Shown here piece after piece: positions 1,951-14,884 of a DNA stretch of 64,000 bases; positions within the stretch are counted from its first letter, which is position 1, and every line of letters starts with the position of its first letter. Source of the stretch: Spirochaetota bacterium. Lineage in GTDB: Bacteria > Spirochaetota > UBA4802 > UBA5550. The notes beneath the pieces were generated by a model. The model saw nothing but the letters and a program-made list of their open reading frames with translations, was not told where the DNA came from and searched no databases. The DNA lies in contig CAXXHB010000003.1 in NCBI GenBank assembly GCA_963664815.2, forward strand, positions 2,336,001 through 2,400,000. The letters are read 5' to 3'. Made by a program: the position numbers and the translations under genes.

Positions 1951-3342
1951 TCAGTCGTGTACCTGGACGAAGAGTTCTTCGTCCAGGTCGTAGAAAAGAT
2001 AAAACGTATTGTTTCCGGCCTTAACAATTCCTGAATTCAGCTGAGCTGCAAATTTCATTCTTTCACCACTGCTGTTAACTGGCGTCAGATCAATACCTCC
2101 GATCCACTTCGGAGCACCTTTCATGACACTGTTCAGATCAGGCATTATCCGTTTATGCATTCTGTTGCTTCGCTGTATCTCCTTTTGCAACAGATTCAGC
2201 ATTCTGGTCACAGTCATATCATCAGGTTCACTTTCAAACAGATTCTCACTTAAATTTTTTGCTTCAAAATGTGCAAGATAATGTAATATACGGCAATAGC
2301 GTCCTGATTCAGAGTGTACAGGAACATGTACAGATTTTGAATTAATGTTCCAGAACCATATAAGTTCCTCTTTTATTTCAGGACTGAAATTTTCAAAAGC
2401 AGCTAATTCTTCAGATGTAAACAGACGCTCATAACGACGAAACATTCTGTAATCACCTGAGAGAAAAAAACAGTTCCCCGTCCATTCCCTGTCAGATTCA
2501 CTGAGAAGACAACGCAGCAGCGGCCTAAGCCCTGCAGTTTTCTTATCACGTGAAGGAAAGGCAAAGACATTCTGAATTGAAGGATAGACATAACACATTG
2601 CAGGGAAAAAATCACTGACAGGTTTTGAGATTTTCTCTTCAGATGCTAAACCTGATTTGCCTATATCAGATACACTGAAATGTTCCGTTTCTATTATGAA
2701 GACTTCATCTGAATTTTTACGCGCCTGCCTCTCAATCTGCCTTAATACCAGCCGTGAATCATAATCCCTGAGATGTTTCTCCGCTGTTTCGATTGTTGAA
2801 ATTGCATCGGCAAAAAGTCCAAGCTCACGTTCAGCCTCAGCTTTTGCAATATAATCACCTGATTCTTCCGCCAAGAAAATTATTCTTTTCAGTGTTTCCG
2901 CAAGATCCAGGGGAAGACAGCTATCCGCCTCTACGGAGGTATATTTTCTCCTGTTATGATTTTGCTCCCACCATAGACGGGTATATAGTATATATTCATA
3001 TCGACGATCAGCGGGTTTTAATTTTCGGCTTTGAGGGAACAGCTCTGTTATAGCTTCAAGGTAACTGATATCATTCTTTTTATCGTCTATGCCTATAAAA
3101 GGGAGTTCCTGGTAATCTTCACTCCCCGGCACCTGTTTTTTTATTTTCGCTTTCGCTATAATAAACCATCTGCTACAATAATGACATAGTTCCACAACCG
3201 GCTCCATCGGATACATAACAGCACTGTAGTACCCGTCAGACCAGAACCTGGCACCAAAAGTATTCCCTGATATTAAGATCTGTTTTCTATACAGTCCTCC
3301 ACAATGAGTACATGATATTATTTCATCCTTTCCGGAACCCAT
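1951..3342 (-). CDS. Zinc-finger (CxxC...SGNTFGA.FWSDG...CxxC) plus TPR-like helical protein with a C-terminal YwqG/DUF1963-like segment
   Basis: CTHC/CHYC pair; helical segment IAKAEAERELGLFADAISTIE; C-terminal GAPKWIGG...MKFAAQL...FYLFYD. Last gene of the operon. Confidence 0.6.
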   Translation of the reverse strand: MGSGKDEIISCTHCGGLYRKQILISGNTFGARFWSDGYYSAVMYPMEPVVELCHYCSRWFIIAKAKIKKQVPGSEDYQELPFIGIDDKKNDISYLEAITELFPQSRKLKPADRRYEYILYTRLWWEQNHNRRKYTSVEADSCLPLDLAETLKRIIFLAEESGDYIAKAEAERELGLFADAISTIETAEKHLRDYDSRLVLRQIERQARKNSDEVFIIETEHFSVSDIGKSGLASEEKISKPVSDFFPAMCYVYPSIQNVFAFPSRDKKTAGLRPLLRCLLSESDREWTGNCFFLSGDYRMFRRYERLFTSEELAAFENFSPEIKEELIWFWNINSKSVHVPVHSESGRYCRILHYLAHFEAKNLSENLFESEPDDMTVTRMLNLLQKEIQRSNRMHKRIMPDLNSVMKGAPKWIGGIDLTPVNSSGERMKFAAQLNSGIVKAGNNTFYLFYDLDEELFVQVHD

Positions 3343-3934: not shown

Positions 3935-6900
3935 TCAATTCTCATAGCTTCTGTACATACGATAAACCTTTTCAAATTTTTCAGAGATCGTTGTCATCAT
4001 AAACACTATTGCCATTGGTATTGCCAGCATAACAAGATATGCCGCAATAACCGCTGTACCGTCAGGAAATTTCTCTATTAGCCCGGGGATTAATCCGCCA
4101 GCCGCATATATCTTCTCACTCCCCGGAATCATAGAAGCCGCCCTGTGTCCGAAGGCAACCAGAACAGGGAATAAAACAGGTAATACAAAAATATACAGTA
4201 TCTGCCCCTCAAACCTGTTCAGCGTATTCACCAGTTTAATCCTGTAATTATAAAATGAACCACAGATTATCATCAGAGTATATGCAATAAAAAAATGTGA
4301 AAGTAAAAAAGCTATAAATCCAAGAAGTATCGGTGATAATGAAATCAATCCGGTAATCCTGCTTACGATATCAAAAGAGAAGAACAGCATCAGAATCGTT
4401 ATCCCTTTTATGGCCGATCCTGTTACACTATTTAACAGGTGCCGTATTTTTAAACCTTTCCCGGGATCAAGAATGGATGCTGTATCATTAAACTTTTCCC
4501 TCTTTGCATAGCAATACGCGGTTTCTCCATCCGGGTCTGCAAGCATTATATCAGCCCCGTATTTAATCAGCATCCTTACTATTCCATTATGACCATCTCC
4601 GGCGGCAAGCATAAGCGGAGTACATTCATCAACAGTGGTAAAAACATTTACCCTTGCACCTTTTTTAAGCAACAATTCCACGATTTCGGGTGAAGATTCC
4701 CTTTCTGTGATTTTGGAATGCTGTAATATGGCCCCCATAAGCGGAGTTATGCCATGTTCTTCCCCTCCATTGATATCAACTCCTGCATCTATAAGAGTTT
4801 TTACAGTCTCAAGCGCCTCCCCCTTTTCATCATTTCGTAAAGCATAGTGGAGCAGATTACAGCCATCTTCCAGAATGATCTTCGGATCAGCGCCCTTTTC
4901 AAGCAGAAGTTTAACAATAGTATTCTGTGATTCTGCTGTTGCTGTTTCATCAGGTGATCCCATAAGAAGAAGCTGCAGCGGCGCGTATTCTCTATCTTCC
5001 TCTTTCTGAGGAAGATTCGGATCAGCTCCTCTGTCAAGGAGCATGGAAGCAATTTCAACATTTCTCCAGCATGCAGCAAGACCCAGAGGAATCTGGCCAT
5101 TCAGGGCAGGACTGTTTACATCAGCGCCGTTGTCCAGGAGTATAGATGCCATTTTTTTATTGCCGGTCAGTATGGAACAATTAAGCGGAGTGGTGTCAAA
5201 ATCGAGAAGTTCAGGATGTGCATTCCCGTTGACCGGAAGGCCCTGAGAAATATAGAATTCCATAAGATCAATCCTGTTCCCACAGGCAATAATACAGGCA
5301 TCTTCAAGCCATTTATTATCATTCCATAAAAACAGAACATCACGGCAATTTCTGAATGGAAACATTTTCAGTACTGTAAAGCGCGAAACAGGATGCATGT
5401 TCATAAGACTGTATGTATCATTAATGATGTTTCTCTTTTCAAGCCATACCAGGAGTTTCGAATCGTCAGTCATTATCCCGCTGATAATCTCCTGCCGTAT
5501 TTCAGGATCTGTTTCCAGCGCCAATTCCTCAGGACTGTAGTAATATTTACCGAGTAGTTTTATCCGCCCTTCACCGTTACTCTGAAGACTAAGAATTACC
5601 GTGTTGAGGGCTCTCTCTTCTGTAATCGCGTCTGAATCAAAGAGATCCCAGAAAGAATCAGCAACGGTTTTCCCGTTTTCTCCGCCAACGGCTTCAAGAT
5701 AAAGATAAAACGGCGACAGGGGGTTTTTAAGCTCCTCCTGGTAATAGATATTGTCCTGATGTGTCAACTCGTCAATTTTAACCATGTCATGAGCTTCAGC
5801 CTCAAGCGCATCCCCCAGTTCCTCGGCAGTAGTACACAACCTGCCCTTATGAGAGATAAATGGTTTTCCCGGATCCAGAGTATATATGGCACGTGTAAGC
5901 CCCGCATTTCTTTCATCACTGCCACTGTATAATTCGATAATTTTCTCCATTTCAGTTGAAAGGGCCATATCATTTGCTTTTTCAAGCCATTCCTTGATTT
6001 TCCCCATATACAGATAATCTGCGCCGCGTTCCGGATGCTTTTCAAGAAGCACTGCTAGTTCTGCAGGGGTTGAGAATGTTTCCGTTGAACTGAATGACCG
6101 CTGTTCATAGGGCCGCAGTGTCGAATTGTAGCTGACTGTCAGTTTTTCTCCTGCAATCCATTTTTTTATTTCACTGTACCCCCACCTCTCTTTCGGAAGT
6201 GGGTTTATAAGTCCTTTGATAAGTACAGCAAGATCAGGGTCCATGCCTCCCGGAAATTCAACTGTTTTATCCCGCACCATTGCAGATCTTATTGCGTCGG
6301 GGATCCCCCTGAATGGTTTTTCTCCAAGCCAGAGATGATACATCGTTATCCCGAAAGCAAAATAATCGGCTGCCTTCCCGGCCATAACCTCCGTCTGGTT
6401 TCCAAACCTCATCAGTTCTGGTGCGGCATACTCTTTCGTACCGTTAGCCCTTACAATTGCCTCACCGGTTCCGTTTTTCATCAGGCTGGAAATACCAAAA
6501 TCCGCCAGCACTACAGATGATCTTGTCTGATCTGTAAAATACACATTTTCCGGTTTCAAATCCTGGTATATTATACCGAGTTCATCATGCAGAACACGCA
6601 GACCCTCGGCAATATTTCCTGCCAGCTTTTTGAGCTGAACAATATTGCTTAACGGTCCAATTTCACGAAGATAACTGTCAAGAGGCCCTCCTGAAGCATA
6701 ATCCATTATTTCAAAATCACGTTCTTCAAACTGTCCAAAATCATGTATTCCTATAATCATTCCCGAACGATCAGATCTGATTTTGCTTATAACATCTTCC
6801 GGAAATTTATATCCCTTCCTGTAATGTTTCATTACAAGAGGTTTCCCACCAAGCTCAATTTCATATATTATTGCCTCACCGGAGGAAATGCTGATAATTC

Positions 6901-7255
6901 TTTTTATTATATAGTTTATTCCATTCAGTTGTACAGTTTTCCCCGGTTCAAAAATTTCATCTCCCTCTGTCTGTTTATGCAATAATACCGACTGGCTGTT
7001 CATTATTCTGATGGTTTCCGCATCCTGCTGGGTATCACCTCCGGCTGCGGATGTAATTTTTATTGTTTCAGCGCTGTTATTATCAATACATACAGTTGAA
7101 TCTGCCGAATCTGCAGATTTTTGTTCATCCAGCCTTACTGTCGGCTGGTTTATATCATTGATCCTTACGGTTGCTTCTGCGGAATCATCAGCTTTTATAT
7201 CATCAATCCTTAACGTCGCATTATTAATTCTTACTGTTTTATTATTTTCACTCAT
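3935..7255 (-). CDS. Hanks-type Ser/Thr protein kinase with N-terminal TxxI repeat tail, ankyrin repeats and C-terminal TM helices
   Basis: Kinase motifs LVMKHY, YQDLKPEN, LADFG, GTKEYAAPE, DYFAFG. About 6-7 ankyrin repeats (TPLNCS..GN...LLDNGADVN; TPLMLAAGDGH..LIKYGAD). About 4 hydrophobic helices at the C-terminus. Confidence 0.92.
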   Translation of the reverse strand: MSENNKTVRINNATLRIDDIKADDSAEATVRINDINQPTVRLDEQKSADSADSTVCIDNNSAETIKITSAAGGDTQQDAETIRIMNSQSVLLHKQTEGDEIFEPGKTVQLNGINYIIKRIISISSGEAIIYEIELGGKPLVMKHYRKGYKFPEDVISKIRSDRSGMIIGIHDFGQFEERDFEIMDYASGGPLDSYLREIGPLSNIVQLKKLAGNIAEGLRVLHDELGIIYQDLKPENVYFTDQTRSSVVLADFGISSLMKNGTGEAIVRANGTKEYAAPELMRFGNQTEVMAGKAADYFAFGITMYHLWLGEKPFRGIPDAIRSAMVRDKTVEFPGGMDPDLAVLIKGLINPLPKERWGYSEIKKWIAGEKLTVSYNSTLRPYEQRSFSSTETFSTPAELAVLLEKHPERGADYLYMGKIKEWLEKANDMALSTEMEKIIELYSGSDERNAGLTRAIYTLDPGKPFISHKGRLCTTAEELGDALEAEAHDMVKIDELTHQDNIYYQEELKNPLSPFYLYLEAVGGENGKTVADSFWDLFDSDAITEERALNTVILSLQSNGEGRIKLLGKYYYSPEELALETDPEIRQEIISGIMTDDSKLLVWLEKRNIINDTYSLMNMHPVSRFTVLKMFPFRNCRDVLFLWNDNKWLEDACIIACGNRIDLMEFYISQGLPVNGNAHPELLDFDTTPLNCSILTGNKKMASILLDNGADVNSPALNGQIPLGLAACWRNVEIASMLLDRGADPNLPQKEEDREYAPLQLLLMGSPDETATAESQNTIVKLLLEKGADPKIILEDGCNLLHYALRNDEKGEALETVKTLIDAGVDINGGEEHGITPLMGAILQHSKITERESSPEIVELLLKKGARVNVFTTVDECTPLMLAAGDGHNGIVRMLIKYGADIMLADPDGETAYCYAKREKFNDTASILDPGKGLKIRHLLNSVTGSAIKGITILMLFFSFDIVSRITGLISLSPILLGFIAFLLSHFFIAYTLMIICGSFYNYRIKLVNTLNRFEGQILYIFVLPVLFPVLVAFGHRAASMIPGSEKIYAAGGLIPGLIEKFPDGTAVIAAYLVMLAIPMAIVFMMTTISEKFEKVYRMYRSYEN

Positions 7256-7267
7256 CGCTTTCTCCTT

Positions 7268-8080
7268 TTATTTCAGGTTCAGCGGAGGACGTTTATATCC
7301 CCTGTCGCTTTGTAGAATCATCATATTAATATTGCTTTTATCCAGATAATAGCTGTAAACCTTATCGATACCGTTTTTATCGCTTTTTTTAGCATAATAA
7401 CCGGCTTTTTTCTCTTCAATATCCTTCAATCTGAAATACTCGGGATTTTCTTCTTCAAACTTTCTCCTTTGTGCATCTGTCACTTTTTTTAATGCAAAAT
7501 TCTTTATTACATACTCCCTGTATGTTTTTTCAAAAGCATCTATTGCATTTTCCATATTGAACACAGTTACCGAATCCTCCCAGTGCCTCGGCATTAATAT
7601 GAAACCTCTGACAGGTGTTTCACCACTGTAAAATTCGGCAGGAGCCCATACATCGCCACCACGCCGTATAACTCCTCCGAGAATAACAACAGTTCCCCGC
7701 GGGACAGACATCACCGGCACCGTCGTTTTGATCATGTCGCTCCCTGTAATTTTAGTAAAGAAAGGTCTTTCTGCGGTAAGAGTATATGTAGCGCGGCTTT
7801 CACCTTTTACAATTGAACTAGAATAAGCCTCATGACCGTATATGTAGAAAGTTCTGATGTCAATCACATTACCCGCAGTTGAAATAATACGGCTGAAACC
7901 GCCTCCATTAAAAAAAAAGATCAGAAGCAAAACTACCCCTGCCGGAATACCGATTTTCAAAAACTGTACCAATCTGACTACAAACCTGGTAAACCAGTTT
8001 ACGCATTCCGGGCACTGCCTGTTATTAAAGAATCCTCCATCAAAATCGCTGTCACAGTTTGGACAAGTCCAAATGGTCAT
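7268..8080 (-). CDS. Zinc-ribbon, single-TM protein with a probable extracytoplasmic domain
   Basis: WTCPNC...QCPEC followed by hydrophobic GIPAGVVLLLIFFF. AGGAGG precedes ATG at 8080 (ORF track starts at 8104). Confidence 0.7.
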   Translation of the reverse strand: MTIWTCPNCDSDFDGGFFNNRQCPECVNWFTRFVVRLVQFLKIGIPAGVVLLLIFFFNGGGFSRIISTAGNVIDIRTFYIYGHEAYSSSIVKGESRATYTLTAERPFFTKITGSDMIKTTVPVMSVPRGTVVILGGVIRRGGDVWAPAEFYSGETPVRGFILMPRHWEDSVTVFNMENAIDAFEKTYREYVIKNFALKKVTDAQRRKFEEENPEYFRLKDIEEKKAGYYAKKSDKNGIDKVYSYYLDKSNINMMILQSDRGYKRPPLNLK

Positions 8081-8081
8081 T

Positions 8082-8807
8082 TTATACCTCCTGTATCGAT
8101 GCAATAATTACCGATATATTATCTTTACCACCCCCTGACTCAGCTGCAGAGACCAGTGCTTCCAGCGGACAGGGATTTGTTTTAAGTATATCTTCAATTT
8201 CATCAGTATGTACAATGTCATGCAGCCCGTCGCTTGAAAGTAAAATAATATCAGTTGATGATAGTCCCACATCTATCGGAGTAAACTCAAGAAACATTTT
8301 ACCACCTCCGCCGAATGAATTGGTTATTATATTTGACGGGGCATCGGGCATGCTCCCTGACTCCCTGAGAGAATGATCCATTGTCAGTCGTTTCAACAAT
8401 CCATGGCTGAAAAGCCAAAGTCTTGAATCACCCGCGTGAAAACGAAAAGCTTTACCCCGATAAAAAAGAATCCCAACCAATGTAGACCCGCTATTCTTTG
8501 GCACTTCCATGTGAGTTTCTTCGGCAAAAGTCCTGAAAACCTCAGCAATCTCATCGTCGGAAAGGTCACCCGGAATACCATGCATGAAATACAAGAGCCT
8601 TTCCAATACCATGGCGCTCGCTTCTTCGCCATTCTCAAGCCCCCCCATTCCATCAGCAACCGCAAGTACAAATGGTTTATCATTTTTATTAATAATTTCA
8701 GCTGAATATCTCCCGTCACGTAAAAGCTTATCGTCAACAAGTATCATATCTTCATTACTGGAGCGTACAAGACCGATATCACAGATTGCGGATACTGAAA
8801 TGCGCAT
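8082..8807 (-). CDS. PP2C/PPM-family Ser/Thr phosphatase (PrpC/Stp1-like)
   Basis: DIGLVRSSNED, AVADGMGG, GSTL, HAGDSR, LLSSDGL and GGKDNIS motifs. Confidence 0.95.
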   Translation of the reverse strand: MRISVSAICDIGLVRSSNEDMILVDDKLLRDGRYSAEIINKNDKPFVLAVADGMGGLENGEEASAMVLERLLYFMHGIPGDLSDDEIAEVFRTFAEETHMEVPKNSGSTLVGILFYRGKAFRFHAGDSRLWLFSHGLLKRLTMDHSLRESGSMPDAPSNIITNSFGGGGKMFLEFTPIDVGLSSTDIILLSSDGLHDIVHTDEIEDILKTNPCPLEALVSAAESGGGKDNISVIIASIQEV

Positions 8808-8809
8808 AA

Positions 8810-9382
8810 TCAGATTCTGGCAGTCGCGTTTTCAGATACTGCTATTTCTACACTAAAATCAATATCAGCTATTCTGAGGGTTGAACCGTTATTTACAGTA
8901 CCGGCTTTATTCGGGACAAGTTTAACCTTGTTAATATAAGTGCCATTGGTCGACCCTGTATCTGAAACAGTCCATATGCTGTCATTATATTCAATTTTAA
9001 TATGACTCCCGGACACCTGCGGAAACCGGCTGAATATTTCAGCAAACGGGCCTGATTTACGTCCAATAACATCTCCATGTGAAGGTGTTATATCTATTCC
9101 ATGCGTTTTACTGTAAAGCCTGAGCTTAAATGGCTGCAACTGCTTAGATTTATCTCCATGATCAGTAGTACCAGAAGATACTGCAGACATTTGCTGTACA
9201 GGAATTGTTTCCGTGCCAGTATTCACTTCATGACCAGGTTTAATCATCACCTGCCCGTCAAAGATACATCTTTTCCCCTTGCCCGGCCTTCCGCAGAGAG
9301 AACACAATAATATCTCTCCGCCACATTGGTCACAGTATATCGAATCATCATCTATTGTTTCCCTGCAATAAGGGCAGTTCAT
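8810..9382 (-). CDS. Double zinc-ribbon plus FHA domain protein
   Basis: CPYC/CDQC/CSLC at the N-terminus. FHA pThr-binding motifs IGR, VSGSH and GSTNGT. C-terminus is ...ENATARI. Confidence 0.92.
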   Translation of the reverse strand: MNCPYCRETIDDDSIYCDQCGGEILLCSLCGRPGKGKRCIFDGQVMIKPGHEVNTGTETIPVQQMSAVSSGTTDHGDKSKQLQPFKLRLYSKTHGIDITPSHGDVIGRKSGPFAEIFSRFPQVSGSHIKIEYNDSIWTVSDTGSTNGTYINKVKLVPNKAGTVNNGSTLRIADIDFSVEIAVSENATARI

Positions 9383-9405
9383 AATATTCCTCCTATCCTG
9401 TTCAC

Positions 9406-11958
9406 CTATCCTGTCACAGTACGGTCAAGATCCTCGGTACGCATTATCCTGATCTCTCTTTTCAGAATCTCATCTTCCACTCCCCTGTCCTGCATCCCGA
9501 TTATGCGGCTGGAGAGTTTTTCTCTTGTCTTTTCAAAAACCTGCCGGACTGTCCTTGCATTAGCGAATGTAGCGCTTTTACCCGAATGAATCTCTTTCAT
9601 TCTTTCCCTGAGCGTTGCTTCAAATCCGTCAGCATATTCAATTTTTTTACTCTTTGCCATGGAATTGAATATTTCAACCATTTCATCCGGAGTGTAATCC
9701 TCGAATGTAATGAAATTAGTGAAACGCGATTTAAATCCGGAGTTTGATTCAATGAACTCATCCATCTCACTTTTATATCCGGCTGCGATACATACGAACT
9801 TACCCCTGTCATCCTCCAGACGCTTAACAAGGGTGTCAACAGCCTCTTTGCCATACTGGTCACCAGCCCCCTGATTCAGCGAATATGCCTCATCTATAAA
9901 AAGTATACCACCCATTGCGCTGTCACATGCGGAATTAACAAGGGGCGGAGTCTGCCCCATATGCGTACCTACAAGCTTCCCGCGGTCCACCTCAACCCGG
10001 TTGTTTGAAGGAAGCATTCCGATTCCCTTAAAAACATCTCCAAGAATACGGGCAACAGTAGTTTTACCGGTACCCGGATTCCCATAAAAAATAAAATGTT
10101 TGGAGACTGCATCCTCCTCCCCCGAAATTTTACCCGCACGGATTGTATTTATTATTGCATTCACTGCTTCTTTAACCGACGCAAGACCTGTAAGTTCATT
10201 AAGCTCTTTCAAGGCATCGTCAACGGTTACAGCCTTTGCCGATGTAGTAAGAGGTATATCTGCCGCAGTTATGGTAAGTATATCTTTTGTGTTATATGCT
10301 TTACCTTCATCTGCCGATTTAGCCAGGCGGTCTGACTGATTGCGCCTGGCATCTTCAAACAGATTGCGCGCTTCACGGCCATTGGCAAAATCTTTCGTTT
10401 TTCTTGAGCAGCGGTCTTTAAAAAATAAAAGAACATTTTCTGCCGCATTTTCTTCTACTATATATTTCTGCTGCCTGGCTTCAATTTTAAATATTTCAAC
10501 AAGTTCTTCCGGATTGTAATCTTCAAGATGAAAACGTTTATTAAACCTGCTTTTAAGACCATCATTCGCCGAGATAAATTTATCCATAGGCTCTTTATAT
10601 CCGGCGGCGACAACCACGAATTTATCTCTGTCGTCCTCCATACGCTTGAGCAGAGCCTCAATAGCCTCAACTCCGAAATCGTTTTCACCACCCTTGGCAA
10701 GGGTATATGCCTCATCGATGAATAACACCCCCCCCATTGCCTGATCACAGAGTGCATTAGTCTGCGGAGCTGTCTGTGCAATATAACCGGCCACCATTTT
10801 ACTCCGATCAACTTCTATTACATGTCCTGTTTCAAGTACGCCCAGCCCTTCAAGTATGCTTCCGAGAAGACGTGCTACCTTTGTTTTACCTGTACCAGGA
10901 TTACCTGTGATGGTAAAATGGTTTACCGGTTTTTTAATTTCTGTCCCGCTGGCTGCCATATCCTGAACATTTTTCATCTGATTAAACAGACTTCGTATCT
11001 CTGCTTTAATGTTTTCCATACCGATAACAGCATCAAGTTCGGCCATTATTTCATCAAGACTTCTCTTCTTTTCAACGGGAAGCGTTACATCCTCTTCAAT
11101 TATAATTTTATCCGCTACTTTCCTTTTAAAATAAGAGGACATAATTTCACGGGCCTCTTTCAACGCGAGGTAACCGTTATGAGCACTGATCTCTGAATCT
11201 GACCTCTTCAGATCTTTTATCAAATATCTGAATCTTTTATTGATCTGATCTTTTACATCTCCGGAAACAATAAGTCCCTGCCTGTCAAGCTCATGACAGA
11301 CAATATCAGAACACTGCGCCGGTGTGTAATCCGGGACAAAAAAGATATTCTGGAAACGACCTGTAATATTTTTATTCTCCGGTTTTTTTACAAATTCCCT
11401 GAACCCGAAAGGAAGCCCGGCAAGTATTACAACAGGATCATTTTCAGATGAATCTATCTGTGTTATAAGAGTTCCAAAGCCGGATGATGCCTTTCCATCT
11501 GAATCAACAAGTTTATGTGCGTTATCAATGAAGAGTACTCCCCCTTTTGCAGCATTAAATATTTTTACAAAGTCAGATGAACCCATTTTTTCGAGTGAAC
11601 TGCCATCCAATACTTCCGGCGTCTTTTTTGTTATCACTCCATAAGATTCAAGAATAGAGGTAATAAGATTTCCTGTAAGCGTTTTTGCAGTACCTGAATT
11701 TCCGATAATAATTGTATTGTACGGTATTCTGAAAGAAGCGCCATTTCTCTTCATACCATCAAGGACATCACTCAGTCCATTCAGTTCTCTTTTAATCTCA
11801 TCAAGACCTACCAGACCATCAAGCAATCCGGGTACACCTGAGGAAATTATGTTATCACCAGCAGCCTGCATCACCGATACAAGACCTTTTCCGCAGTATC
11901 TGCAGAATTTTGCCGTACCGCGGTTATCCTTGCCGCAGTTGCCGCATTTTATAGACAT
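9406..11958 (-). CDS. Triple-module CbbX/SpoVK/EccA-type AAA+ ATPase with N-terminal zinc ribbon
   Basis: Three AAA modules: GNSGTAKT/VLFIDNAH, GNPGTGKT/VLFIDEAY, GNPGTGKT/ILFIDEAY, with SRF and FANGR/FANAR motifs. GGAGG precedes MSIKCGNC at 11958 (ORF track start 12051 overlaps the upstream gene). Confidence 0.92.
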   Translation of the reverse strand: MSIKCGNCGKDNRGTAKFCRYCGKGLVSVMQAAGDNIISSGVPGLLDGLVGLDEIKRELNGLSDVLDGMKRNGASFRIPYNTIIIGNSGTAKTLTGNLITSILESYGVITKKTPEVLDGSSLEKMGSSDFVKIFNAAKGGVLFIDNAHKLVDSDGKASSGFGTLITQIDSSENDPVVILAGLPFGFREFVKKPENKNITGRFQNIFFVPDYTPAQCSDIVCHELDRQGLIVSGDVKDQINKRFRYLIKDLKRSDSEISAHNGYLALKEAREIMSSYFKRKVADKIIIEEDVTLPVEKKRSLDEIMAELDAVIGMENIKAEIRSLFNQMKNVQDMAASGTEIKKPVNHFTITGNPGTGKTKVARLLGSILEGLGVLETGHVIEVDRSKMVAGYIAQTAPQTNALCDQAMGGVLFIDEAYTLAKGGENDFGVEAIEALLKRMEDDRDKFVVVAAGYKEPMDKFISANDGLKSRFNKRFHLEDYNPEELVEIFKIEARQQKYIVEENAAENVLLFFKDRCSRKTKDFANGREARNLFEDARRNQSDRLAKSADEGKAYNTKDILTITAADIPLTTSAKAVTVDDALKELNELTGLASVKEAVNAIINTIRAGKISGEEDAVSKHFIFYGNPGTGKTTVARILGDVFKGIGMLPSNNRVEVDRGKLVGTHMGQTPPLVNSACDSAMGGILFIDEAYSLNQGAGDQYGKEAVDTLVKRLEDDRGKFVCIAAGYKSEMDEFIESNSGFKSRFTNFITFEDYTPDEMVEIFNSMAKSKKIEYADGFEATLRERMKEIHSGKSATFANARTVRQVFEKTREKLSSRIIGMQDRGVEDEILKREIRIMRTEDLDRTVTG

Positions 11959-11971
11959 ATCGGAATCCTCC

Positions 11972-13003
11972 TTAACTTGGCCCTTTAATATTAACATCAA
12001 TTGTGCCGCCAGTATACCAATAACCGCCAAGTTTCGGTTCATCACAGGCATTAGGTCCTTCCGGACAGAGATGTACAGTATTTGTAAAATTGCAAAGCCA
12101 GCCTGTTACTTCCGGAGGCTTCATCGCCATATGATAACGCCGTGCCTCCTGCTGAGTGGTAAACTTTTTATTTCTGAATTTAAGCATTGCTTCATTAGCC
12201 GCCTTCTCCGCAGCGCTTTTTTTCTTCTCAAGTTCGGCTTTCTTCATCATTAACGCGTCAAATTCAGCATCTTTTACTGCACGTATTCGTTGCTCTTCCA
12301 ACTGTTCGTTACGTGCAGCTTCCTCTTCTTTAATTTTTTCGGCCTTTGCTATTGTCTTCTCAGACCCCAGAATTTCCTTAATCTGTGCATCTGAAAAAAA
12401 GGATGGTTTCACCGGTGACACCGCTGCAATTGAAGGAGATTGTCCCTCTTTATTTTTTCCCGCTTCTTCAATAAGACGTTCAATTTCCGACAGTTCTCTT
12501 TCAAGAGAAATTGATTCCCGTACTGTCTCTATAAAATTTTTTGCTTCTGGATCTTTCTGCGCAGCAACTGCTGCTGAACGCGCGTATTCTGTCAGAGGTT
12601 TATTACATTTTGAACAGAAATCAAATATGCTCTTTGTGCCGCAGGAGGGACATACTATACCATTTTTATCATTACCGCATTCCGGGCAAAACGAAGCATC
12701 ATCAGGAATTTCAGCATAACAGAATTTACATCTGCCGTCAAGAAGCCATTCTCCGCAGAATGTACAGATATCTGCTCCCGGATTAACCGGTTTACCACAA
12801 TGAGGACAAAAAAGCGGTGCATTCAACATCGAGCCGCATTCCAGACAGTACTCAGCTTCAGGAGGATTCACGGTACCACATGAAACGCATTTTATTCCAT
12901 CTTCAACAGACTGCTGATTGGATATCTCTTTTTGGAAAGCCTCTTCATGCTGTTGTTTTGCAAATGAAGACTGCTTCTCTTTGCCCTGATAATTACCGGT
13001 CAT
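11972..13003 (-). CDS. Multi zinc-ribbon (DZR) plus coiled-coil protein; first gene of the operon
   Basis: Eight CxxC motifs (CVSC, CLEC, CPHC, CTFC, CKFC, CPEC, CPSC, CSKC), a coiled coil, and a C-terminal Cys/His motif WLCNF...HLC...AC. Confidence 0.85.
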   Translation of the reverse strand: MTGNYQGKEKQSSFAKQQHEEAFQKEISNQQSVEDGIKCVSCGTVNPPEAEYCLECGSMLNAPLFCPHCGKPVNPGADICTFCGEWLLDGRCKFCYAEIPDDASFCPECGNDKNGIVCPSCGTKSIFDFCSKCNKPLTEYARSAAVAAQKDPEAKNFIETVRESISLERELSEIERLIEEAGKNKEGQSPSIAAVSPVKPSFFSDAQIKEILGSEKTIAKAEKIKEEEAARNEQLEEQRIRAVKDAEFDALMMKKAELEKKKSAAEKAANEAMLKFRNKKFTTQQEARRYHMAMKPPEVTGWLCNFTNTVHLCPEGPNACDEPKLGGYWYTGGTIDVNIKGPS

Positions 13004-13456: not shown

Positions 13457-14884
13457 ATGGACGATCTTTTCCCAGATAACGAATTACTTTCACTGCTGAA
13501 CAGCGTAATAAACGGAGATCAGTCATCCGGTAAAAGCCAACCTCAGCGTTTTATTCCTGACAACAAGCCATCACAGATACATAACCTTGATATTCTTCGA
13601 ACTTCTGTTTTTACAGACGACGATCTGGAATCCTTCACCCGTGCCCATGATAAAACTGCAGCCGAAATCGGCAAAATCATCGGCGGGATGGTTGTCACTG
13701 CAGACTTTTCAGGAGCGATTCTTACAGGAGAATTTCTGCGCAGCGTGCCTGCCGATTCTTTGACATATATTCTCGCTTTTCAATCCGGCCGTTATGACGG
13801 TTTTATTGAAACTGACCAACCACTGTGTGAATTTTTAAACGATGAAATTGTAAATGAAATAGTTTCAGTTATAAATCAATTCCCTGTAATAAATATGGAA
13901 CTGAATTGTACTCTGTCAGGGAAAACAGAGGGTCCTTTTCTCCAGAACCATGACAAAACAGTATTCTGTAAAATGTCAGCAAAATACGGTGATAAAGTCT
14001 TCGGCATAAATATCGGCTACGATATAAACCTGGCTGCAAAAATGCTGAATATTTCCCTGCCTCATGATATTCCGCTAAGTAGAGATACTTTCTATATCGG
14101 TTCCGCAGGAATATCAAAAATTTTACAGCTTATTCCCGGGAAAAGTATATCTTTGCCTGAAATCTGCCCGACTGTGTATCACACCCGTATAGAAAATACG
14201 GAAAAAAACATGGATTACACAACACTTAGTACAGATCCCTTTATGGAAAACATAAGGTTTCCTCTGACCGTTTCTTTCAGTCATTCTGTTTCAGATATTT
14301 ATATGACTGAAGGGGAACCAGCAAAACTCTATGCTGGTTCCAACCTGATTGCTTCAGTTGTAATCCGAAAAAAAAACGGCCTTCTCACAGCATCTGTAAC
14401 AGATCAAAATATAGACCACGAATACGATAATGCCGGGCAAAACACACTGATCCCTGTTTATGCGGAGTTAGGGAGATGCATATATACTGATGAATCGTTT
14501 TCTATCGGACAGATTCTCCATCTTTACAACGATCGTTTCCCGCATATCAGGCTTTATGCAGGATCAAATCTCTATATGGGGGAATGTGAGGCCATATCCT
14601 GTGACAGCAGTTTCGCAGCAAGAATACTTGATACCTCACCGATAGAACAAAATCCCTCTGAAAGAGGAAACCTCCGTTTTGTTCTTGCAGTAAGAAATTT
14701 TCCTTTACAGGATATATCATCCATTGAAAAGTACGACAACCTTATCTTTAACGGACCTTTTACCGGAGATATTCTGATTTATAATGGTAATCGTCAGGTC
14801 GCCTGGGGGCAGATATCCGAACAAAACAATGATTATTGCATACGTGTTATTTCAATTCCTGAAGACAAGGGTGATCATTTATGA
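13457..14884 (+). CDS. Divergent FliM/FliY-like protein with repeated SpoA (FliN-like) segments
   Basis: N-terminal DNELLSLLNSV and FTDDDLESFTRAHD echo the FliM N-terminus. C-terminal repeats such as IPVYAELGR...SIGQILHL...IRLYAG and DILIYNGNRQVAWGQISEQNNDYCIRV fit the SpoA pattern. Confidence 0.5.
   Translation: MDDLFPDNELLSLLNSVINGDQSSGKSQPQRFIPDNKPSQIHNLDILRTSVFTDDDLESFTRAHDKTAAEIGKIIGGMVVTADFSGAILTGEFLRSVPADSLTYILAFQSGRYDGFIETDQPLCEFLNDEIVNEIVSVINQFPVINMELNCTLSGKTEGPFLQNHDKTVFCKMSAKYGDKVFGINIGYDINLAAKMLNISLPHDIPLSRDTFYIGSAGISKILQLIPGKSISLPEICPTVYHTRIENTEKNMDYTTLSTDPFMENIRFPLTVSFSHSVSDIYMTEGEPAKLYAGSNLIASVVIRKKNGLLTASVTDQNIDHEYDNAGQNTLIPVYAELGRCIYTDESFSIGQILHLYNDRFPHIRLYAGSNLYMGECEAISCDSSFAARILDTSPIEQNPSERGNLRFVLAVRNFPLQDISSIEKYDNLIFNGPFTGDILIYNGNRQVAWGQISEQNNDYCIRVISIPEDKGDHL

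What the first reader, a model, noticed from the sequence alone, without database searches (positions are those of the whole stretch)
7004..7255. Kinase N-terminal tail is an array of seven T-x-x-I/L motifs, a probable multivalent FHA docking platform
Seen: the low-complexity first 84 aa contain TVRI (T7), TLRI (T14), TVRI (T29), TVRL (T39), TVCI (T54), TIKI (T64) and TIRI (T81), separated by acidic or polar spacers. The 25-aa spacing of T29->T54 and T39->T64 suggests an internal duplication. Established: FHA domains bind phospho-Thr with selectivity set mainly by the +3 residue, and pT-x-x-I/L is a classic class. Inference: autophosphorylation converts this tail into a scaffold that loads several copies of the operon's FHA protein, conceptually similar to Rad53 TQ clusters or TIFA oligomerisation.
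Basis: partly seen in the sequence, partly recalled or inferred. Interest (0 to 1): 0.85.

Follow-up and report, generated by a model that had tools for sequence, protein, structure and literature searches.

The report
Repeated threonine docking motif on kinase tail
A membrane protein kinase carries a floppy front end with seven copies of a short threonine motif that is conserved across several bacterial phyla and reappears at the very end of the neighbouring phospho-threonine-reader protein, which suggests a phosphorylation-controlled docking switch of a known type in a gene set nobody has studied.

Summary
Residues 1-84 of the kinase (window 3935-7255, minus strand) contain seven T-[VIL]-[RKC]-[IL] motifs. 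The other 1023 residues contain none, and 0 of 20000 shuffles matched the count.

In 118 homologues the motif recurs as G-T-x-R-[LIMV]-D, in 0-8 copies. It is about 135 times denser in the tails than elsewhere. AlphaFold2 predicts the tail to be disordered.

New here:
- The neighbouring zinc-ribbon-FHA protein ends in the same motif (T-A-R-I-stop). So do 75 of 85 of its homologues.
- Position 0 is Thr in 409 of 413 occurrences and Ser in only 1. FHA domains are known to read pThr only, so this fits an FHA ligand.
- The ZnR / triple-AAA+ / ZnR-FHA / PP2C / kinase cassette is conserved across Spirochaetota, Fibrobacterota and Burkholderiales.

An FHA-docking tail is the best reading, and it follows the logic of PknG-GarA and MST2-SLMAP. 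Neither phosphorylation nor binding has been shown. The conserved core is T, R(+2), hydrophobic(+3) and D(+4), not T-[VIL]-[RK]-[IL]. The proposed 25-residue duplication is not supported. Typical spacings of 7-9 residues make simultaneous loading of many FHA copies doubtful.

It is a new variant of a known kind.

The parts
3935..7255 (-). Ser/Thr protein kinase, 1106 aa. Layout: disordered N-tail, Hanks-type non-RD kinase domain, helical middle region, ankyrin repeats, C-terminal multi-pass membrane region.
   Evidence: ORF and translation. Pfam Pkinase E 1e-27 and Ank_2 E 6e-34. Catalytic motifs and hydrophobic segments. AlphaFold2 mean pLDDT 80.8.
6962..7255 (-). N-terminal tail, residues 1-98. 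It is acidic (net charge -9 over the first 100 aa), has no aromatic residues and is predicted to be disordered. The finding's 7004-7255 corresponds to residues 1-84.
   Evidence: pLDDT below 50 for residues 1-98. Composition.
7226..7237 (-). Motif copy 1: T7-V-R-I. Fits the family core T-x-R-[LIMV].
7205..7216 (-). Motif copy 2: T14-L-R-I-D. T14 and R16 are at least 90% conserved in alignment A1.
7160..7171 (-). Motif copy 3: T29-V-R-I. Its DNA shares a 26-nt repeat at 81% identity with copy 2.
7130..7141 (-). Motif copy 4: T39-V-R-L-D. T39 is invariant and R41 is at least 90% conserved in alignment A1.
7085..7096 (-). Motif copy 5, degenerate: T54-V-C-I-D. It has Cys instead of Arg at +2.
7055..7066 (-). 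Motif copy 6, degenerate: T64-I-K-I. It has Lys at +2. In the family, K fills +2 in 13 of 289 T-x-?-[LIMV]-D sites.
7004..7015 (-). Motif copy 7: T81-I-R-I.
6146..6937 (-). Kinase catalytic domain, about residues 107-370. Carries K143, Y-Q-D232 (non-RD), N237, DFG252 and APE278.
3980..4420 (-). C-terminal hydrophobic region, residues 946-1092, with about 4-5 membrane helices.
   Evidence: Hydropathy scan. Long helices in the AlphaFold2 model.
8810..9382 (-). Zinc-ribbon-FHA protein, 190 aa. Layout: zinc ribbon 1-50, disordered linker 51-80, FHA domain 85-182, short C-tail.
   Evidence: Pfam FHA E 6e-12 and DZR. AlphaFold2 pLDDT about 97 over the FHA domain. G107, R108, S124, H127, S144, T145 and N146 are conserved.
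8813..8824 (-). C-terminal copy of the same motif on the FHA protein: T187-A-R-I190, followed by the stop codon.
   Evidence: T187 and R189 are at least 90% conserved.
8082..8807 (-). PP2C Ser/Thr phosphatase, the presumed eraser.
   Evidence: Pfam PP2C. NCBIfam Stp1_PP2C E 2e-32, below the curated cutoff. Conserved next to the FHA gene in 17 loci.
7268..8104 (-). 278-aa zinc-ribbon plus membrane-helix protein with no known family. It lies between the PP2C and kinase genes.
   Evidence: No Pfam, NCBIfam or PADLOC hit. Orthologues found only in L013 and L014.
9406..12051 (-). Zinc-ribbon plus three-module AAA+ ATPase of the SpoVK/EccA/CbbX class.
   Evidence: Pfam AAA, 3 stretches. NCBIfam spore_V_K E 1e-148 and EccA E 3e-142.
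11972..13003 (-). 343-aa protein with several zinc ribbons. It is the first gene of the cassette.
   Evidence: Pfam Zn_Ribbon_1 (3 stretches) and DZR. Orthologues in 16 loci.

Best explanation
The disordered N-terminal tail of this membrane kinase is an array of phospho-acceptor and docking sites with the family consensus G-T-x-R-(L/M/I/V)-D.

Proposed mechanism, in order:
1. When the kinase is active it phosphorylates the tail threonines (inferred).
2. The resulting pT-x-R-hydrophobic sites are read by the FHA domain of the zinc-ribbon-FHA protein encoded three genes upstream (inferred).
3. That docking brings the FHA protein's own C-terminal G-T-x-R-(I/L)-COOH motif to the kinase, which phosphorylates it (inferred).
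4. The phosphorylated C-terminus then competes for FHA domains. Only about 5 residues separate it from the last beta-strand, so this most likely happens in trans. The result would be either release of the adaptor or head-to-tail chains (inferred).
5. The cassette's PP2C resets the system (inferred).

This is the logic known from PknG with GarA/OdhI and from MST2 with SLMAP.

Shown: the motif, its conservation, its strict use of Thr, the disorder of the tail, intact catalytic and pThr-binding residues, and gene linkage.
Inferred: phosphorylation, FHA binding and the order of events.
Unknown: what the cassette controls. The output presumably runs through the triple AAA+ ATPase and the zinc-ribbon proteins.
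For: (1) The motif is real and not due to chance: 7 copies in 84 aa, 0 in the other 1023 aa, and 0 of 20000 shuffles reach 7.

(2) Family-wide conservation. In 118 of the 120 listed homologues that could be anchored, T-x-R-[LIMV] occurs 409 times in 6961 tail residues and 54 times in 124232 other residues. Copy number runs from 0 to 8. G is at -1 in 256 of 363 sites and D is at +4 in 242 of 363.

(3) The motif survives swaps of the kinase's C-terminal domain: ankyrin, LRR_5 (P0048), RCC1 (P0055), SH3/Sel1 (P0108), MORN (P0112) and FGE-sulfatase (P0101). Its reader must therefore be a constant component.

(4) Position 0 is Thr 409 times, Ser once, and A, E and N once each, although the tails contain 483 Ser. 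FHA domains are pThr-specific (established knowledge; see the FHA passages in PMC5663475), whereas Hanks kinases generally accept both Ser and Thr.

(5) The same motif ends the FHA protein. 75 of 85 homologues end exactly in T-x-R-[LIMV], and none ends in S-x-R-[LIMV]. In a set clustered at 50% identity, 36 of 150 do. The free C-terminal carboxylate sits where the kinase-tail copies have Asp at +4.

(6) No conserved copy of the motif appears in the ZnR343, AAA+, PP2C or U278 orthologues.

(7) Gene linkage. FHA and PP2C orthologues accompany the kinase in L013, L014, L016-L020, L022-L024, L027-L030, L032 and L034. These come from Treponema, Fibrimonas, Brevinematales, Burkholderiales, Melioribacteraceae and Prevotella.

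(8) More distant kinase relatives show a different tail repeat (T-I-[LI]-E). No FHA neighbour was detected at 14 verrucomicrobial-type loci by phmmer, nor at two of them among 10 ORFs scanned against Pfam.

(9) The tail is predicted to be disordered, with pLDDT below 50 for residues 1-98.

(10) The kinase catalytic residues and the FHA G-R / S-x-x-H / N residues are intact.

(11) Precedents read in passages. PknG's N-terminal autophosphorylated threonines anchor the FHA domain of GarA/OdhI (PMC8546545). Seven pT-M sites in the MST2 linker bind the SLMAP FHA domain, with consensus E/D-G-pT-M-x-R/K, which also has G at -1 (PMC5663475).
Against: - There is no direct evidence that any of these threonines is phosphorylated, or that the FHA domain binds them.
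- The link is not universal. Prevotella cassettes (L029, L030, L032) and L034 have FHA and PP2C but no T-x-R-[LIMV] in the kinase tail. Melioribacteraceae have T-V-R-[G/F/L]-D, so +3 is not always hydrophobic.
- The 6 Burkholderiales and Niveibacterium FHA orthologues (L016-L020, L022) lack the C-terminal motif, although their kinases carry 4-7 copies.
- 9 of 118 kinase homologues scored 0 copies and 10 scored 1. Some of the zeros are truncated or mis-anchored sequences. Multivalency is typical but not obligatory.
- The commonest spacings are 9 residues (93 of 300) and 7 residues (59 of 300). That is tight for simultaneous occupancy by several FHA domains.
- AlphaFold2 leaves the unphosphorylated FHA C-tail undocked, with pLDDT below 50 for residues 187-189.
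- The homologues are related to one another, so the counts overstate the number of independent observations.
Confidence: 0.55

Rival explanations
1. The motif is only the kinase's own substrate or pseudosubstrate consensus. The tail copies would be autophosphorylation sites, or decoys that occupy the active site and regulate activity. The FHA protein's C-terminus would be a substrate site. The FHA domain would read some other phospho-site, not this motif.
For: The motif occurs on exactly the two proteins expected to be kinase substrates, namely the kinase itself and an FHA protein. A fixed Arg at +2 and a hydrophobic residue at +3 look like a kinase specificity signature. The Burkholderiales FHA proteins lack the motif, so the two motif locations are separable.
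Against: Hanks kinases usually tolerate Ser. Here Ser replaces Thr once in 413 sites, which fits a pThr-only reader better. Repeating a site up to 8 times is hard to explain by active-site occupancy, because one site would be enough. The kinase is non-RD (Y-Q-D), a class that by recalled knowledge often does not depend on activating phosphorylation.
Confidence: 0.2
2. The motif is a phospho-independent short linear motif read by another constant cassette component. Candidates are a zinc ribbon, the PP2C, or the pore or N-domain of the triple AAA+ ATPase. It would tether the kinase and the FHA protein to that partner.
For: AAA+, PP2C and ZnR343 are as tightly co-conserved with the kinase as FHA is. 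Every cassette protein carries a zinc ribbon of unknown function. The FHA protein bearing the motif itself would then simply be a second client.
Against: An invariant Thr that excludes Ser, in a disordered segment of a kinase, is most simply a phospho-site. The cassette encodes a dedicated pThr reader with intact binding residues. None of the other cassette proteins has a domain known to read such motifs.
Confidence: 0.12
3. The repeats are short beta-strand units that fold or assemble on oligomerisation, for example into a beta-arcade or on the membrane. They would play a structural rather than a signalling role.
For: T-V-R-I-D has some alternating character. The repeats have a fairly regular period, with mode 9.
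Against: Position +1 is freely A, V, Q, D, T, R or E, so there is no conserved amphipathic pattern. AlphaFold2 gives pLDDT 27-39 across the tail with a 25-sequence alignment. The spacers vary widely in length (7-42 residues) and in composition.
Confidence: 0.05

Closest known systems
PknG with GarA/OdhI (Mycobacterium, Corynebacterium)
   Same: The kinase has a disordered N-terminal extension holding several autophosphorylated threonines. These anchor the FHA domain of a small FHA protein. The FHA protein is itself phosphorylated on a Thr in its own unstructured tail (passages of PMC8546545). That GarA's phospho-tail then binds its own FHA domain is recalled, not read here.
   Different: PknG's tail is poorly conserved and has no repeated consensus (PMC8546545). 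Here one stereotyped G-T-x-R-hydrophobic-D unit is repeated up to 8 times and reused on the partner. The partner's site is at the extreme C-terminus, about 5 residues after the FHA domain, not in a long N-terminal arm. The kinase here is membrane-anchored with ankyrin repeats and has no TPR or rubredoxin domain. The gene context is different (triple AAA+, zinc ribbons).
MST2 linker with the SLMAP FHA domain (human Hippo pathway)
   Same: An autophosphorylated, flexible kinase segment carries seven short pThr motifs that redundantly dock one FHA domain. The consensus E/D-G-pT-M-x-R/K also has Gly at -1 (passages of PMC5663475). Docking there recruits a phosphatase complex, and here a PP2C is in the cassette.
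   Different: The MST2-SLMAP system is eukaryotic and unrelated in sequence. Its motif is T-M, not T-x-R-hydrophobic-D. Its sites lie in a linker after the kinase domain. SLMAP carries no copy of the motif.
ArnA/ArnB of Sulfolobus acidocaldarius
   Same: The FHA protein has the same zinc-ribbon plus FHA architecture as ArnA. The A2 profile matches 5a8i and 8s05 over positions 2-178 at E about 9e-5. ArnA binds its partner in two modes: through the zinc finger without phosphate, and through the FHA domain to multiple pThr sites (passages of PMC12852372).
   Different: ArnA's ligand is a vWA protein with a helical bundle, not a kinase tail. This cassette has no vWA gene. No repeated consensus motif or C-terminal self-motif is described for ArnA in the passages read.
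   Same: TIFA has a pThr site and an FHA domain in one small protein, which allows intermolecular self-assembly (recalled). The ZnR-FHA protein here has the same two elements. In Rad53, clustered Thr sites near a kinase are read by FHA domains (recalled).
   Different: The defining [ST]-Q of SCD clusters is absent: Q is at +1 in only 73 of 363 copies. Nothing here shows TIFA-type oligomerisation.
Type VI secretion threonine-phosphorylation pathway (PpkA, PppA, Fha1, ClpV)
   Same: The parts list is the same: a membrane Hanks kinase, a PP2C, an FHA protein and an AAA+ ATPase (recalled; also named as closest known in earlier scan note e1-5201989).
   Different: The AAA+ here is SpoVK/EccA/CbbX-class, not ClpV. 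None of the cassette proteins matched a T6SS structural family in Pfam. No repeated tail motif is known for PpkA (recalled).

Membership tests
FHA-domain ligand of the pT-x-x-(I/L) class | The phospho-acceptor is threonine, and serine is not accepted. | tested here: met
   Position 0 is T 409 times and S once among 413 x-x-R-[LIMV] sites in 118 tails that contain 483 Ser. Among FHA C-termini, 75 of 85 end in T-x-R-[LIMV] and 0 end in S-x-R-[LIMV].
FHA-domain ligand of the pT-x-x-(I/L) class | Aliphatic residue at +3. | tested here: met
   In T-x-R-?-D sites, +3 is L 99, M 76, I 64, V 29 and Q 1. The exception is Melioribacteraceae, which have G or F at +3 in some copies.
FHA-domain ligand of the pT-x-x-(I/L) class | The threonine is actually phosphorylated. 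| not testable with these tools
   This needs mass spectrometry. Only the intact catalytic residues of the kinase could be checked.
FHA-domain ligand of the pT-x-x-(I/L) class | Phospho-dependent binding by an FHA domain. | not testable with these tools
   This needs ITC, FP or pull-downs. The cassette's FHA domain keeps G107-R108, S124, H127 and N146.
PknG-GarA-type docking (kinase tail recruits an FHA substrate) | Disordered extension next to the kinase domain that carries several Thr sites. | tested here: met
   pLDDT is below 50 for residues 1-98. There are 10 Thr in the first 100 residues, 7 of them in the motif.
PknG-GarA-type docking (kinase tail recruits an FHA substrate) | The partner is a small FHA protein with its own phospho-acceptor Thr outside the FHA domain. 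| tested here: met
   The partner is a 190-aa ZnR-FHA protein with a conserved C-terminal T187. This holds at sequence level only, and phosphorylation was not tested.
PknG-GarA-type docking (kinase tail recruits an FHA substrate) | Orthology to PknG (kinase core with TPR, with or without a rubredoxin domain) and to GarA/OdhI. | tested here: not met
   The kinase has ankyrin repeats and membrane helices and no TPR or rubredoxin hit. The FHA protein scores 24 bits against NCBIfam OdhI, whose cutoff is 200. The resemblance is in how the system works, not in family membership.
Rad53-type SQ/TQ cluster domain | Clustered [ST]-Q sites. | tested here: not met
   Q is at +1 in 73 of 363 family copies and in none of the 7 copies in the window.
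Known anti-phage defence systems (PADLOC) | Cassette proteins match a system-specific model over most of its length. | tested here: not met
   Only generic matches to the kinase, ankyrin and AAA domains were found. The FHA and U278 proteins had none.

The most novel reading that the evidence does not exclude
The cassette is a phosphorylation-triggered assembly switch. A multivalent writer (up to 8 pT-x-R-hydrophobic-D sites on the kinase tail) combines with a self-complementary adaptor, which has a zinc ribbon, an FHA reader and its own C-terminal pT-x-R-hydrophobic-COOH ligand. Together they build head-to-tail, higher-order FHA chains at the membrane, like a bacterial TIFA-type signalosome. 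The triple SpoVK/EccA-class AAA+ ATPase would then remodel or disassemble these chains. The terminal carboxylate mimicking the +4 Asp would be a new way of encoding an FHA ligand.
Probability: 0.2. Interest if true: 0.8.

Novelty: new variant of a known kind. Interest (0 to 1): 0.6.

Why it matters
Most bacterial FHA ligands are known only case by case, and kinase docking tails such as PknG's have no recognisable consensus. This family offers a sharply defined candidate FHA ligand, G-pT-x-R-hydrophobic-D or a terminal carboxylate. A variant occurs in Ignavibacteriota.

That makes several questions directly testable with peptides:
- What sets FHA specificity beyond +3?
- Do repeated sites act by avidity or by stoichiometric loading?
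- Does a reader that carries its own ligand self-assembles or self-inhibits?

It also gives an experimental handle on a conserved ZnR / triple-AAA+ / FHA / PP2C / kinase cassette. Six full-text searches found no description of that cassette, and its biological output is unknown.

Tried and rejected
- **Complex prediction.** I submitted FHA residues 80-183 (alignment A2) with kinase tail residues 1-45 (alignment A1). The tool returned no verdict: score 0.02 against a mark of 0.32, and the controls were not run. The tool cannot model phosphothreonine here, so this result counts neither for nor against binding.
- **Cis-docking of the FHA C-tail.** The AlphaFold2 model of the whole FHA protein leaves residues 183-190 at low confidence. 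This is uninformative for a phospho-dependent contact.
- **Internal 25-aa duplication.** Rejected.
- **Known defence system.** PADLOC gave only generic domain matches.
- **The Aravind-type NTP-dependent conflict systems paper** (PMC7159879). I read only the passages containing FHA, PP2C or phosphopeptide. It mentions FHA only sporadically and does not describe this cassette.
- **The Esr pathway preprint** (PMC13622651). I read the outline and section 8. It is a MoxR/vWA-based system, not this one.
- **The bacterial Ser/Thr-kinase atlas preprint** (10.1101/2025.01.12.632604). I ran a term search only. It does not mention ankyrin kinases, spirochaetes or a repeat motif. Its supplementary tables could not be seen and might list the family.
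- **Orthologue in close relatives.** It was not found with this query in the 40 related genomes searched. The best hits were 31-32% identical over the kinase domain only. Five of the 7 same-genus genomes gave no hit and two gave E of 7.5e-5 or weaker.
- **Covariation between motif variants and FHA residues.** I considered this but did not attempt it, for lack of paired sequences with context.
Full report
**What is there.** The finding's coordinates (7004-7255, minus strand) encode residues 1-84 of a 1106-aa protein (3935-7255). Its ATG is preceded by AAGGAG at a spacing of 6 nt, and it lies 12 nt after the stop of the upstream gene (read). Pfam finds a protein kinase domain (E 1e-27) and ankyrin repeats (E 6e-34). 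A hydropathy scan finds 4-5 hydrophobic helices at residues 946-1092. The catalytic residues are all present: K143, Y-Q-D232 (a non-RD kinase), N237, DFG252 and APE278. AlphaFold2 with a 25-sequence alignment gives a mean pLDDT of 80.8. Residues 1-98 score 27-39, which indicates disorder, and order begins near residue 105.

- T-[VIL]-[RKC]-[IL] occurs 7 times in the tail and never in the other 1023 residues.
- Shuffles of the tail average 0.029 copies, and 0 of 20000 reach 7. For the looser T-x-x-[IL], the mean is 1.24 and again 0 of 20000 reach 7.
- Genome-wide, T-x-R-[LIMV] occurs 0.058 times per 100 aa in 5235 ORFs. No other credible ORF has a cluster.
- The proposed 25-aa duplication is not supported. 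The only DNA repeat is a 26-nt pair at 81% identity that links the T14 and T29 units. Tandem Repeats Finder finds nothing.

**Conservation.** A search with residues 1-400 found 939 proteins at E of 0.001 or better among 7999 scored candidates, and 120 were listed. In the 118 that I could anchor on the S-G-E-A loop:
- T-x-R-[LIMV] occurs 409 times in 6961 tail residues and 54 times in 124232 other residues.
- Copy number is distributed as 0:9, 1:10, 2:15, 3:28, 4:23, 5:17, 6:8, 7:4, 8:4. Some of the zeros are truncated or mis-anchored sequences.
- The unit is G(-1; 256 of 363) - T - x(+1: A 137, V 84, Q 73, D 26) - R - L/M/I/V - D(+4; 242 of 363).

The conserved residues, however, are T, R(+2), hydrophobic(+3) and D(+4), and +1 is free. 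In the window, five copies fit this core, and T54 (Cys at +2) and T64 (Lys at +2) are degenerate.

The motif persists whatever follows the kinase domain: ankyrin, LRR, RCC1, SH3/Sel1, MORN or FGE-sulfatase. Whatever reads it is therefore a constant component.

Copy number changes by tandem duplication. In Paucibacter (L017) the tail is encoded by a 135-nt array of 2.3 copies at 89% identity. The window's copies are old and have diverged outside the core.

**Two results that bear on the interpretation.**
1. Position 0 is Thr 409 times, Ser once, and A, E and N once each, although the tails hold 483 Ser. Exclusion of Ser is what a pThr-only reader such as FHA would impose. A Hanks kinase alone would not be expected to impose it (established knowledge).
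2. The cassette's zinc-ribbon-FHA protein (8810-9382) ends in N-A-T187-A-R-I190-stop, which is the same motif.
   - Of 85 homologues, 75 end exactly in T-x-R-[LIMV] and none in S-x-R-[LIMV].
   - T187 and R189 are at least 90% conserved.
   - In an independent search clustered at 50% identity, 36 of the best 150 end this way. Most of the others stop right after the last beta-strand.
   - The free carboxylate falls where the kinase copies have Asp at +4.
   - No conserved copy exists in the other cassette proteins.

It ties the motif to the kinase-FHA pair specifically.

**Context.** On the minus strand the genes run in this order:
- a multi-zinc-ribbon protein (11972-13003);
- a zinc-ribbon plus three-module AAA+ ATPase of the SpoVK/EccA/CbbX class (9406-12051);
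- ZnR-FHA;
- PP2C (8082-8807);
- a zinc-ribbon membrane protein with no known family (7268-8104);
- the kinase.

The ZnR / AAA+ / FHA / PP2C / kinase set recurs in Treponema, Fibrimonas, Brevinematales, Pelomonas, Paucibacter, Roseateles and Niveibacterium. It recurs in rearranged order in Melioribacteraceae and Prevotella.

Tail motifs track this only partly:
- The closer cassettes have 1-7 strict copies: 3-7 in nine loci, and 1 plus degenerate copies in L014.
- Melioribacteraceae have T-V-R-[G/F/L]-D on the kinase and T-F-R-L or T-I-K-L at the FHA C-terminus.
- Prevotella and L034 have neither.
- The 6 Burkholderiales and Niveibacterium loci (L016-L020, L022) have 4-7 kinase copies but no FHA C-terminal copy.
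- More distant verrucomicrobial-type kinases have two T-I-[LI]-E units instead. I detected no FHA neighbour there.

The orthologue was not found in the 40 related genomes searched, so the cassette is patchily distributed. PADLOC gives only generic domain hits.

**Mechanism.** The best-supported reading has four steps.
1. The active kinase phosphorylates its tail threonines.
2. The FHA domain docks on pT-x-R-hydrophobic. G107-R108, S124, H127 and N146 are conserved.
3. Docking presents the FHA protein's own C-terminal Thr for phosphorylation.
4. The PP2C resets the system.

The C-terminal Thr lies only about 5 residues beyond the last strand. By recalled FHA geometry, the termini lie opposite the pThr-binding loops. 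I therefore infer that the C-terminal site acts in trans, either competing the adaptor off the kinase or chaining adaptors head to tail. All of these steps are inferred. Only the sequence features are shown.

The commonest spacings between copies are 9 residues (93 of 300) and 7 residues (59 of 300). The window's spacings are 7, 15, 10, 15, 10 and 17. I therefore think avidity or redundancy is at least as likely as simultaneous loading of many FHA copies.

**Comparison with known systems.** The logic is that of PknG with GarA/OdhI, where N-terminal autophosphorylated threonines anchor the FHA substrate (PMC8546545 passages). It is also that of MST2 with SLMAP, where seven pT-M sites dock one FHA domain with consensus E/D-G-pT-M-x-R/K (PMC5663475 passages). 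The ZnR-FHA architecture matches ArnA (PDB 5a8i and 8s05; PMC12852372 passages). Membership in any of these families fails on orthology. The Rad53 TQ-cluster analogy fails on its defining Q.

Six full-text searches found no description of the cassette or the motif. My loci L029-L032 agree with its gene order.

**Verdict.** This is a new variant of a known design, made more interesting by the shared writer/reader motif and by the uncharacterised, multi-phylum cassette. Confidence that the tail is an FHA-docking array is 0.55. Confidence that it is a conserved phospho-acceptor motif shared by the kinase and the FHA protein is higher, about 0.8 by my judgement.

Noticed in passing
window 8813-8824 (-): The ZnR-FHA protein ends in T-A-R-I-stop, the same motif as the kinase tail. 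75 of 85 homologues end exactly in T-x-R-[LIMV]. This became part of the main argument.
   Followed up: yes
window 7268-13003 (-) and 1951-3342 (-): Every cassette protein except the PP2C and the kinase starts with or contains C-x2-C...C-x2-C zinc ribbons: ZnR343, the AAA+ N-terminus, the FHA N-terminus and U278. The non-conserved 463-aa ORF downstream (1951-3342) has one too. A shared zinc-ribbon interaction code is possible.
   Followed up: no
window 11972-12051: The ZnR343 ORF and the longest AAA+ ORF overlap by 80 nt on the same strand. The true AAA+ start is probably a downstream Met.
   Followed up: no
L036-L051 (for example L041:9791-13141, L038:9797-12400): Verrucomicrobial-type relatives of the kinase carry two T-I-[LI]-E units in their N-tails instead of T-x-R-hydrophobic. 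They also have an FtsK-gamma-like domain, with or without RCC1 repeats. No FHA gene was found among the 10 neighbouring ORFs scanned. This may be a different tail code for a different reader.
   Followed up: partly
L054:6541-9066: A distant cassette with PP2C and a weak FHA hit (E 2.6e-5) has tail units N-E-T-R-M-E, G-V-T-R-V-D and G-T-T-R-M-E. These may place the Thr directly before the Arg, which would be a shifted variant of the motif.
   Followed up: no
L017:9620-9927: The Paucibacter kinase tail is encoded by a 135-nt tandem DNA array (2.3 copies, 89% matches; three motif units per period). This shows recent copy-number expansion.
   Followed up: partly
window 3935-7255 and genomes G001-G040: No orthologue of the kinase was found in the 7 same-genus and 33 other related genomes searched. 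The nearest relatives are metagenomic proteins at 48-49% identity, so the distribution is patchy and probably reflects horizontal spread.
   Followed up: partly
window 13457-14884 (+): A 475-aa protein with only a C-terminal FliN/FliM_C domain (E 9e-6) lies divergently upstream of the cassette. Its relation to the cassette is unknown.
   Followed up: no
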